Source: a virus (lineage: Duplodnaviria; Caudoviricetes). From it: a stretch of DNA of 64,000 nt. Positions 36,633 to 39,475 of this stretch are shown one piece after another. The stretch lies in IMG/VR virus record IMGVR_UViG_3300013382_000004. One strand, written 5' to 3'. A program made the position numbers and the translations under genes. The first letter of the stretch is position 1. Every line of letters begins with the position of its first letter. The notes beneath the pieces are model-generated. The model did not search any database. It had not been told where the DNA came from and saw nothing but the letters and a program-made list of their open reading frames with translations.

Positions 36633-39475
36633 TTAAGCAACAGTAACCTTCATGGTATCAGTGAGAGCCTCGTTAAGCTTAAACTTAACAGTGAACTCAG
36701 TGGTATCAACAACAGTGATGACACCATTAGCATAAGTACTAGTACCAGAAGAAGCAGTAACATCATACTGGTCAACAGCAAGCTTAATAGGAGCACCATC
36801 AACAGGGCAAGCATAAACATTAAGTTCAATCTTGTCACCAGCCTTAGCAGACTGATTCTTATCCTCAACAACAATGCTGGCGAACATATCGGCAGCAGTC
36901 TTATTTTCAAGAACCTGAACAATTTCAGCGTAAACGCCGTCACCGTCGCATCCAGCACATCCAGAAGCCAATAGCGATAGGTAATCCTTTGAAATTATCT
37001 CCAGATTTTCCCCCGCTCTAAACCGTGCATACGCCTTTCAACGTACACGGCTTGCCATCGGTTTAAAATTAATTATTTTCCCAATCTTTTAAAATAATCT
37101 AAACGAAATTTCGTCCTTCTTTTAATTGATTTACGGACTCTTCTATTTGCTATTTTGTTGGCAACTATCTCCGCGAACGAACTCTTAAAATCTTAAACCC
37201 TTGCGATTTTAAAAATTCATCTCATCTTCTATCTTTCTAATAATTTTTATGCCAATAGTTACCATCATATTCAACATCTATTTTTATTTTTTCATCTATA
37301 AAAAGAGCTATATCCAAGGATAAAGAAGATACTGGGTAATTTAATTTAATATTGTACTATGGATACATTTCAGATAAAATGTCTTTTAACTATATTTGCT
37401 ACATAGAAGTTGGGACATTCCCATTTTTCTCTCTTGTCTACATTGCTTTTTCTTGCAACTAAGGACATTTCCGAGCATTGTCATATCCATATTTATCCAT
37501 CATTGTCTTTTTACCCTTATCTCTCACTTCTTGGTTTCCAAGACTAGTTTCCGAACCATATTTTTTAATACAAGACTATATTTGTTTCTCTCTGATTTCT
37601 TTGTTCAAAGTAGGATTTTTTACTCCATATTTTTTCAAGCAGCATTCTTCAATTTTCTTTTGTATTTCTTCACTTTGTTGAGCAAATTCTACACCATATT
37701 TTTTCAAATTGGATTCTTTTCGCTTTTTATCAAAATCTTGCGCTTGAAAATAATTTTCCACTCCATATTTTTCTAACATTGTCGCAGTTCTATTATTCTA
37801 AAATTCTACAATATTAGATGGGTTCTTTTCTCCATATTTTATTAAACAAGTCTATTCTCTTTTTTCTTGTATCTTATTCTTGTATTCTTTCATATGAGAA
37901 CATTTATTACATATATCTTTTCCCCAAATGTTAAAAGATTTAATATGCTAACTATGTCTGCGACTATAATTTTCTCCACAACAATCGCATTTCCTTTCCT
38001 CTTTAATAGAAGTTCCATCCTACAAATGTTTAGAAAAAACTTTTATTGTGTCTCCACATTTTCCCTAATATCCAAAAGAATGATAATGGTTTATATTAAG
38101 ACTACCTAATTTTACCTCAATTAAATTATCAAGTATCATTTTTATCCCCCCTTTCTTTATAATATAACAAATAATAATAGATGTTTTAAATTTAAATTGA
38201 TTTTAATTAATTTTAAATCGACTAATGCCCATCCCTCCATTCCCATTACAGGAACTTCAACGGTTCGAACATCTCTTTTCCCCACAAATTAAATTAGCTT
38301 ATTTCTTTCTCAAGTTTCGACTAATAACTATGCGTTTTGTAGGTTTCCTTGTACCAATAATTCTATCTCAATATTTTTAGGTGCTTGCTTTGAGCCTATT
38401 AAATTATTGTCTTAGCAATTAGGAATTTCATACCGCGCAGTTTTACTTTTCCCTATTTAATAGCATACAATTTCTTGCATGGGGTAACTCGTACATTCGC
38501 AAGTTCGTCAGTGAATTTTCACATTCTCACCATGAATATTTCTCTCGTTAAAAAACGAATTGACACCCGACATATTAAAAACCATGCTTTCGTTTAGGCT
38601 TTCGTCTGCCGACTTTATCTGGTTTTATACGAAAAAAATTTCTTTTAATCGCACACAGAAGCTTAGTGAAACATCTTCGGGATTATTTTCCCTCATTTAT
38701 GTTTTCGAATTATTAGTTAAAAGATATTATTCTTTCTCTCTTTTCCTTATTATTTTAAGTTATAGAGAAACAAGTCATCACGCGCAGAACCCTCAATAGA
38801 AGTATTGCTGACACCAGAAGCGCTCATGCTGAGTTCCTGAGAACCATTAAGCATGAAGCGAGGAACCTTGATGATAACCTTACCAGCAAGGGTAGAAGTC
38901 TCAACATCACAAGAGCCACCATTGTAAAGGTTAGCTTCAAGAATGCAAGTCAGAGTCTTAGGAATGAAGTTAGCACTAATAGTAATCTTGGAAGCGATAT
39001 CGTTGTGATACATATAACGAACACAAACTTCAGAATCATTCAGAGACTCGTCAAGAGTAACCTCATTAACGCCAGCACCAGAAACAGCATAACGCTGATA
39101 ACCTTCATCAGTACCAGACTTCTTAACATAAGCATAAACATTGGTATTACCAACCATAGGAACAGCCTTGTAAGACAGAGTAACCTTACCACCAGCAACA
39201 GTCAGCTTCTCATCCTTCATAGCATCGCCACCGAGCTCAACATCAGAACCAGTGTTCATAGCGAGATACTCAAGAGAGAACATGGCATCGGTCAGCTTGA
39301 GGTCGAAGGTAGAAGTATGTGCATAACGACCATAAAGCTTGTTACCAGCGCCAGCACGCAGTTCTTCGAAGCTCAGACCTATAGTAATGCTGGAGTCAAT
39401 CAGAGTATTTGCAGTAGCGACAAGGCGCTCGCCATCAAGAAGAGTGGCGCGGCCCACACCAGCTAAAAATAACAT
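36633..39475 (-). CDS. Major tail protein (343 aa); exons 38782-39475 and 36633-36970
   Basis: Ligation gives IEGSAL|ASGCAGC in frame. High-expression codon bias and an Ig-like C-terminus. Confidence 0.8.
36971..38781 (-). mobile_element. Group II intron (class B-like), no reverse transcriptase
   Basis: DV AGCCGTGTACGTTGAAAGGCGTATGCACGGTT, DVI ending TTACCTATCGCTAT, DIII-like GTTCCTGTAATGGGAATGGAGGGA, 5' end GTGATGACTTGTTTC. Confidence 0.85.
37069..38139 (-). pseudogene. Group II intron ORF: KYGVEN repeats + Vsr/DUF559-like endonuclease, premature TGA at 37222-37224
   Basis: CDCCG, repeated TCL.KYGV.N, DVEYDGNYWH, DRR*DEFLKSQG. Confidence 0.75.

What the first reader, a model, noticed from the sequence alone, without database searches (positions are those of the whole stretch)
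36971..38781. RT-less group II intron carrying a Vsr/DUF559-like endonuclease in the major tail protein gene
Seen: clear DV and DVI, and in-frame ligation (GCG C|TG GCT). The domain IV ORF has no RT or maturase motifs. It has KYGVEN repeats and an EYDG..WH nuclease domain. The 5' end reads GUGAUGAC, one base longer than the GUGYGAC consensus. Established: group II introns are rare in phages and normally encode an RT. Homing-endonuclease-bearing ones are known mostly from LAGLIDADG cases in fungal mitochondria. Inference: this ribozyme switched from retrohoming to DNA-break homing and must splice without its own maturase in a highly expressed structural gene.
Basis: partly seen in the sequence, partly recalled or inferred. 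Interest (0 to 1): 0.75.

Follow-up and report, generated by a model that had tools for sequence, protein, structure and literature searches.

The report
Endonuclease-carrying group II intron, phage tail
A self-splicing intron interrupts the tail-tube gene of a large gut phage and carries a DNA-cutting enzyme where a reverse transcriptase normally sits; it is real and well supported, but this kind of element was described in other phages in 2025, and in this copy the enzyme gene has a premature stop.

Summary
Confirmed. A 1811-nt group IIB intron (38781-36971, minus strand) splits the tail-tube gene of a roughly 215-kb gut phage that reads TAG as Gln. Support: two Rfam hits; 42 intron-less alleles that join exactly at GCG C|TG; exon-binding pairs kept across ten alleles. 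Domain IV holds no RT. It holds a zinc-binding module, six 23-residue KYG repeats (DUF7487) and an EDxHD/Vsr-type nuclease under purifying selection (dN/dS 0.06-0.21). Occupied alleles carry six exon bases near the site that empty alleles almost never have, and all empty alleles mismatch EBS1. Both fit DNA-break homing with co-conversion, but linkage alone is not excluded. The gene cassette appears to have been exchanged between ribozymes, and sister introns sit in a second virion gene. Splicing and cleavage are untested. Phage group IIB introns with Vsr-like endonucleases were published in 2025 (PMC12350094), and this scan met the same element in another genome. New here: the repeat module, the structural-gene sites and the population evidence. 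New variant of a known kind.

The parts
38782..39475 (-). Exon 1 of the tail-tube (major tail) gene, 231 codons plus one base
   Evidence: Orthologs carry PF27173 YomU_Tube; 38.5% identical to the annotated major tail protein of Enterocloster phage PMBT24
36633..36970 (-). Exon 2 of the tail-tube gene, with a variable C-terminal domain
   Evidence: Continuous with exon 1 in 42 empty alleles; weak PHROG 853 major tail protein hit, E 0.005
36971..38781 (-). Group IIB intron, 1811 nt, GUGAUGAC...CUAU
   Evidence: Rfam; empty alleles; homologous introns at the same site, 74-99.7% identical
38782..38792 (-). IBS1 (38787-38782, CUGCGC) and IBS2 (38792-38789, GGGU)
   Evidence: 100 of 100 cells paired with EBS1/EBS2 in 10 alleles; 30-57% when slid
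38783..38809 (-). Exon tract linked to the intron: diagnostic bases at 38809, 38808, 38804, 38792, 38783 (and 36969 in exon 2)
   Evidence: Shared by the occupied alleles of this host clade (6, or 5 for the exon 2 site), in at most 2 of 28 empty alleles; no such site elsewhere in 600 nt
38661..38664 (-). AAGC bulge (epsilon-prime/lambda-prime, IIB type)
   Evidence: AARC in 15 of 16 introns counted as AAGC or AAAC except two with AAUC (14 AARC, 2 AAUC); Rfam alignment
38482..38485 (-). EBS2 (ACCC)
   Evidence: A/G first base matches U/C in IBS2
38433..38438 (-). EBS1 (GCGCGG)
   Evidence: C-G to U-A change on both sides in 2 alleles
38390..38390 (-). EBS3 (A), pairing with the first base (U) of exon 2
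   Evidence: A with U in 13 tail-site introns, U with A in 3 second-site introns
38226..38343 (-). Domains II (38343-38281) and III (38271-38226)
   Evidence: RNAalifold helices with compensatory changes; coordinates
37055..38225 (-). Domain IV; basal stem 38225-38208 pairs with 37071-37055 and the loop holds the ORF
   Evidence: Stem forms in all 11 alleles, -11.6 to -20.2 kcal/mol
37222..38139 (-). Endonuclease ORF, codons 1-305: CxxC-CxxC module, six 23-aa KYG repeats (DUF7487), start of the EDxHD/Vsr nuclease (D276, E290, D292, H297, D303); ends at premature TGA
   Evidence: Pfam DUF7487 E 2e-31; PHROG homing endonuclease; invariant residues
37069..37221 (-). In-frame remainder of the nuclease domain behind the premature stop
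   Evidence: the intact allele P0003 hits DUF559 E 4e-8
37020..37053 (-). Domain V, catalytic triad AGC at 37052-37050
   Evidence: RF00029 alignment
36971..37017 (-). Domain VI, unpaired A at 36978 (8th base from the 3' end), terminal AU

Best explanation
The element is a group IIB ribozyme that lost its RT/maturase gene and took up a homing-endonuclease gene in domain IV. Step 1 (structure shown, activity inferred): the late tail-tube transcript is spliced by the RNA itself, using EBS1, EBS2 and EBS3 and a branch A, giving the 343-aa tube protein; unspliced RNA would give a 241-aa fragment. Step 2 (sequence shown, timing inferred): the endonuclease has 15 TAG codons, the first at codon 25, so it can be made only when TAG is read as Gln, while the tube exons have none. 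Step 3 (inferred): in co-infection the enzyme cuts the intron-less allele near the site, and recombinational repair copies the intron together with about 30 flanking exon bases. That tract includes the two bases the intron needs for full IBS1 and IBS2 pairing. Step 4 (shown): in this copy the nuclease is cut short at codon 306, so it probably splices but no longer homes.
For: Rfam hits and IIB landmarks. Exact empty alleles, 42 empty to 5 occupied among loci pulled by the host gene. EDxHD residues invariant in 48 homologs; best solved relative I-Bth0305I by sequence (E 0.005; E 0.01) and among the top fold hits (probability 0.99, E 0.006; Vsr 1cw0 also 0.99). dN/dS 0.06-0.21 for seven pairs of intact alleles. 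All 42 empty alleles pair at most 5 of 6 with any EBS1 variant tested, always failing at -2, and 27 also lack the IBS2 G. Six diagnostic exon bases, all within -28..+2. Window and L034 share an identical ribozyme and 0/40 differences next to the site, but 11/200 further upstream. Occupied and empty alleles interleave in the host tree. A complete genome with a sister intron has no RT or maturase (G006). Exon co-conversion is a known mark of endonuclease homing (PMC2504315). A LAGLIDADG group II protein cleaved its target and did not aid splicing (PMC4424553).
Against: No spliced RNA seen and no cleavage assay. The structural matches to I-Bth0305I are weak in E-value. The diagnostic tract could be plain linkage to an old insertion: the ribozyme tree follows the three host clades, so no jump between clades is shown, and two of the six bases are required for splicing anyway. 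Branch support inside the host clade is low. One occupied genome (G004) has an RT elsewhere. The EBS shuffle control is modest (16 of 500).
Confidence: 0.75

Rival explanations
1. The intron is an old resident that is inherited vertically, lost now and then and reshuffled by ordinary phage recombination. The endonuclease is active but cuts elsewhere (a passenger, like a free-standing endonuclease using the intron as a harmless site), so the exon tract is only linkage.
For: Ribozyme tree matches host clades. Relatives of the ORF also occur free-standing (L040, L041). Endonuclease and ribozyme trees disagree.
Against: All six closest protein clusters looked up lie in this intron at this site. 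Second-site introns have their own, more distant ORFs (33-41%). Purifying selection over deep divergence is simplest if the enzyme spreads its own intron. Empty alleles carry a nearly uniform tract (23 of 28 identical), which precise loss from GCG alleles would not give.
Confidence: 0.13
2. The ORF is bifunctional: the basic KYG repeat array binds the intron RNA and acts as a replacement maturase, and this is what keeps it under selection.
For: Every one of 11 tail-site alleles and 3 second-site alleles examined keeps the ORF. The window's stop spares the repeats and removes only part of the nuclease.
Against: The alleles were partly found through the ORF, so retention is biased. The same protein family occurs outside introns. 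Catalytic residues are invariant. The tested LAGLIDADG case had no maturase activity. An ORF-less relative exists (L096), and ORF-less phage IIB introns are published.
Confidence: 0.07
3. The intron still depends on a group II RT/maturase supplied in trans by the host bacterium or the phage, for splicing and perhaps for retrohoming.
For: RT-encoding introns share its domain I motif. Most ORF-less bacterial introns have such partners. G004 has an RT. The host and the rest of this genome could not be searched.
Against: No RT in the window by tblastn with seven related RTs (best E 0.41). None in G006 or in three complete relatives. The G004 RT has no maturase domain and no domain V of its own. 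Empty targets mismatch EBS1.
Confidence: 0.05

Closest known systems
Phage group IIB introns with EDxHD/Vsr-like endonucleases (AR9, PBS1, S6, MarsHill; Merk, Jones, Eddy 2025, PMC12350094)
   Same: Subclass IIB; endonuclease instead of RT; Vsr-like C-terminal domain (IEYDG..H..D, hhalign E 0.003); same Rfam model D1D4-5 for AR9, PBS1 and S6; D5/D6 72% identical to AR9; 5' end longer than consensus.
   Different: N-terminal part is one CxxC-CxxC module plus six DUF7487 repeats, not three to five CapR-like domains; no protein similarity outside the nuclease; host gene is the tail tube, not RNA polymerase; ORF uses TAG for Gln.
I-Bth0305I, EDxHD homing endonuclease (PMC3239194; PDB 3r3p)
   Same: Vsr-like nuclease at the C-terminus behind repeated putative DNA-binding modules; acidic and His catalytic residues in the same order; phage intron-encoded.
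   Different: It lies in a group I intron of recA and has NUMOD repeats; about 21% identity in the nuclease; cleavage shown there, not here.
LAGLIDADG-encoding group II introns of fungi, algae and Thiomargarita (PMC4424553, PMC13190283)
   Same: RT replaced by a homing endonuclease; RNA and protein trees incongruent, read as modular recruitment.
   Different: Different nuclease family; organellar or rRNA genes; not phage.
RT-encoding group II introns in IMG/VR contigs that share the domain I motif (L095, L097, L099, L100, L102, L106, L108)
   Same: Same 21-nt domain I motif, similar D5/D6.
   Different: They encode 600-645-aa YADD proteins; their order relative to the two endonuclease lineages is unresolved.

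Membership tests
Group II intron | Domain V with catalytic triad and domain VI with unpaired A | tested here: met
   RF00029 54.7 bits; AGC at 37052-37050; A at 36978
Group II intron | Six-domain fold with domains I-IV | tested here: met
   RF02004 89 bits; 41 of 159 predicted pairs with changes on both sides; domain IV stem in 11 alleles. The domain I basal stem was placed by hand; RNAalifold paired it differently.
Group II intron | Discrete insertion against intron-less alleles, frame restored | tested here: met
   42 empty alleles
Group II intron | 5' GUGYG and 3' AY boundaries | tested here: inconclusive
   3' AU met. 5' is GUGAUG, one base longer, invariant in all tail-site alleles; boundary fixed by EBS1-IBS1 pairing
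Group II intron | Splicing through a lariat | not testable with these tools
   No RNA holder listed
Subclass IIB | EBS1, EBS2 and EBS3 pairings; AARC bulge; branch A eight bases from the end | tested here: met
Retrohoming (RT-encoding) group II intron | RT and maturase domains in the intron ORF | tested here: not met
   Pfam finds only DUF7487, DUF559, MTES_1575; no tblastn hit with related RTs
EDxHD/Vsr homing endonuclease | Vsr-like fold with D...E-x-D...H...D residues | tested here: met
   Invariant D276, E290, D292, H297, D303; model pLDDT 90.7; 3r3p and 1cw0 at Foldseek probability 0.99, weak E-values. Met for intact alleles; the window copy lacks the last 51 residues.
EDxHD/Vsr homing endonuclease | Cleaves the intron-less allele near the insertion site | not testable with these tools
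   Indirect only: linked exon tract, dN/dS
CapR-array EDxHD-like endonucleases of Merk et al. 2025 | Three to five CapR/DUF4379/DUF723-like domains before the nuclease | tested here: not met
   One Cys4 module plus six KYG repeats; alignment to the AR9 protein covers only the nuclease

The most novel reading that the evidence does not exclude
The DUF7487 repeat protein is both a homing nuclease and a new kind of group II splicing factor, gated by the phage's own recoded codons, and the intron can colonise alleles it cannot pair with because DNA repair installs its exon-binding sites.
Probability: 0.08. Interest if true: 0.75.

Novelty: new variant of a known kind. Interest (0 to 1): 0.4.

Why it matters
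It adds a second, apparently independent pairing of a group IIB ribozyme with a Vsr-type endonuclease in phages, and it comes with something the published cases lack: dozens of natural empty and occupied alleles, intact and broken enzyme copies, and two insertion sites. That makes two open points directly testable: whether such introns home by DNA breaks with exon co-conversion, and whether a group II intron in a phage virion gene splices without a maturase. A compact maturase-free IIB ribozyme and a nuclease with a 23-residue repeat array could also be of practical use. The concept itself is no longer a surprise.

Tried and rejected
No whole genome is held for the window, so a trans-acting RT in this very genome was not searched; relatives were used instead, and two occupied metagenome contigs (L048, L050) could not be searched. 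Sequencing runs: no RNA holder listed. The one joint across the intron in run X1 carries the empty-allele bases (TCT AAC, GAA, GCT CTT), so it is an intron-less phage, not a spliced RNA. The variant table there was cut, so the stop codon could not be checked against other runs. An alternative 5' splice site two bases upstream (GCGUG/GUGUG) was rejected: L028 has A there, EBS1 pairs through -1, and the 3' end would not be AY. 'Two natural genes' was rejected by 42 continuous alleles. Promoter-like sites before the ORF are not above chance (16 against 11.7 +/- 3.4). Foldseek gave no hit at E <= 0.001. The ribozyme tree did not resolve whether the two endonuclease-bearing lineages share one origin. 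The G004 RT was not classified beyond 'RT without maturase domain, outside a group II intron'. No complex was predicted.

Full report
Context. The window comes from a phage that reads TAG as Gln: ORFs of 100 codons or more cover 91% of it under code 15 and 52% under table 11. Close relatives are 206-221-kb gut phage genomes. No whole genome is held for the window. The interrupted gene is the tail tube: orthologs hit PF27173 YomU_Tube, and exon 1 is 38.5% identical to the major tail protein of Enterocloster phage PMBT24.

The observation. Rfam finds domain I (RF02004, 89 bits) and domains V-VI (RF00029, 54.7 bits, ending at 36971) on the minus strand. Removing 38781-36971 restores a 343-aa frame. 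Among loci pulled by the host gene and readable at the site, 42 are empty and join exactly there, and 5 are occupied. Ten more occupied loci, the window and some duplicates included, came through the ORF. Introns at this site are 74-99.7% identical to the window's.

The ribozyme. It has the marks of subclass IIB. EBS1 (38438-38433) and EBS2 (38485-38482) pair with IBS1 and IBS2 in 100 of 100 cells over ten alleles, against 30-57% for slid partners; 16 of 500 shuffles reach this, so the covariation is modest. EBS3 is A opposite U in 13 tail-site introns and U opposite A in three sister introns at a second site. The AARC bulge is present in 14 of 16 introns, AAUC in two. The triad is AGC and the branch A is eight bases from the end. 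Domains II-IV show compensatory changes. The 5' end GUGAUGAC is invariant and one base longer than GUGYGAC. This is not unique: sister intron L037 starts GUUUCGAC and AR9 starts GUAUGUGAC.

The ORF. It sits in the domain IV loop and has no RT or maturase domain. Intact alleles are 354-357 aa: a CxxC-CxxC module, six KYG repeats at exact 23-residue spacing (DUF7487) and a DUF559-type domain. D276, E290, D292, H297 and D303 are invariant in 48 homologs. The best solved relative is the EDxHD enzyme I-Bth0305I (PMC3239194), with weak E-values but high fold probability. The family is large: 3680 clusters at E <= 1e-10, some free-standing. dN/dS is 0.06-0.21. The window's copy has TGA at codon 306, where L034 has CGA and five other alleles AGA. 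The catalytic residues precede the stop, but a core strand and two helices of the modelled domain follow it, so the product is probably inactive (inference). The ORF has 15 TAG codons and two CGG codons; the tube exons have neither. Full-length enzyme therefore needs amber read-through, which I infer restricts it to the phase when the phage's code is in force.

Mode of spread. Three results favour DNA-level homing. First, every empty allele has T at -2 and fails one EBS1 pair with all five EBS1 variants tested; 27 of 42 also lack the IBS2 G; every occupied allele has both. Empty alleles are thus imperfect targets for reverse splicing. Second, in the window's host clade six bases separate occupied from empty alleles, all between -28 and +2, with none elsewhere in 600 nt. 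Two are splicing requirements; four, including TCT against AGY at one Ser codon, are not. Exon co-conversion is a known result of endonuclease homing (PMC2504315). Third, the window and L034 have identical ribozymes and identical proximal exon but differ at 11 of 200 bases further upstream, and occupied and empty alleles interleave in the host tree. Against this: the ribozyme tree follows the three host clades, and ordinary recombination around an old insertion also leaves a linked tract. The ORF tree conflicts with the ribozyme tree at starred branches: L048 and L050 have a ribozyme 92% like the window's but an ORF only 64-71% alike. This points to cassette exchange, as reported for LAGLIDADG group II introns (PMC13190283); I ran no formal topology test.

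Second site. Related introns with 33-41% identical ORFs interrupt the gene just upstream of the major capsid gene in L037, L039 and L103. That gene is intact in the window (47528-47001). The complete genome holding L103 has no RT and no maturase; the 99% complete genome holding a tail-site intron has one RT with no maturase domain and no second domain V. This favours splicing without a phage-encoded maturase, but host factors are untested.

Comparison with what is known. Merk, Jones and Eddy (PMC12350094) describe four phage group IIB introns that encode EDxHD/Vsr-like endonucleases instead of RT and propose break-repair homing. The AR9 intron shares the Rfam model and 72% of D5/D6 with this one, but its protein aligns only over the nuclease. 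So this element works like those introns and belongs to group IIB and, in intact alleles, to the EDxHD/Vsr enzymes. It is not a member of their CapR-array subfamily. A further search found no other paper on this pairing.

Verdict. Real, well bounded, and most likely a self-splicing intron that spreads by endonuclease homing, here with a disabled enzyme. Shown: structure, boundaries, alleles, protein family, selection, linked tract. Inferred: splicing without maturase, cleavage, homing, late gating. New variant of a known kind; interest 0.4.

Noticed in passing
window 34280-35740 (codons 356, 360, 361), 37222-38139 and its remainder (codons 223, 324), 60226-63996: CGG codons sit at glycine columns: three in the SGFMxGGY motif of the beta-CASP gene, shared by six relatives, and codon 324 of the endonuclease where eight other alleles have GGN. 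Three relatives carry a tRNA with anticodon CCG and discriminator U like their Gly tRNAs. Fits CGG read as Gly; already reported several times by this scan for this genome.
   Followed up: partly
L037 3366-5167, L039 3394-5235, L103: Sister group IIB introns with DUF7487/Vsr ORFs at a second site, in the gene upstream of the major capsid gene (YR[IV]G[DS]/K).
   Followed up: yes
window about 45209-46518: The major capsid gene is interrupted, with a LAGLIDADG ORF (46054-45230) inside; Rfam gives no group I hit even at E <= 1. L039 has group I hits in its capsid gene.
   Followed up: no
window 34116-34212 and 32882-33868: A drum RNA match (44.8 bits) just upstream of a GIY-YIG endonuclease gene.
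   Followed up: no
L048 and L050, intron ORF: The endonuclease frame is intact but begins with ATA rather than ATG.
   Followed up: no
L017 about 895-905: Exon 1 of this occupied allele has an in-frame TAA in a short diverged patch; artefact or a dead tail gene.
   Followed up: no
L109 80-2940 (G004): A 573-aa RT without maturase domain behind a 195-aa gene, in an intron-carrying genome; possibly a diversity-generating retroelement (impression, not tested).
   Followed up: partly
window 39468-39469: Three runs hold a 387-base insertion a few bases after the start of the tail gene; L029 has a faint LAGLIDADG gene just upstream of the tail gene.
   Followed up: no
L096: An ORF-less group II intron of the same domain I type.
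   Followed up: no
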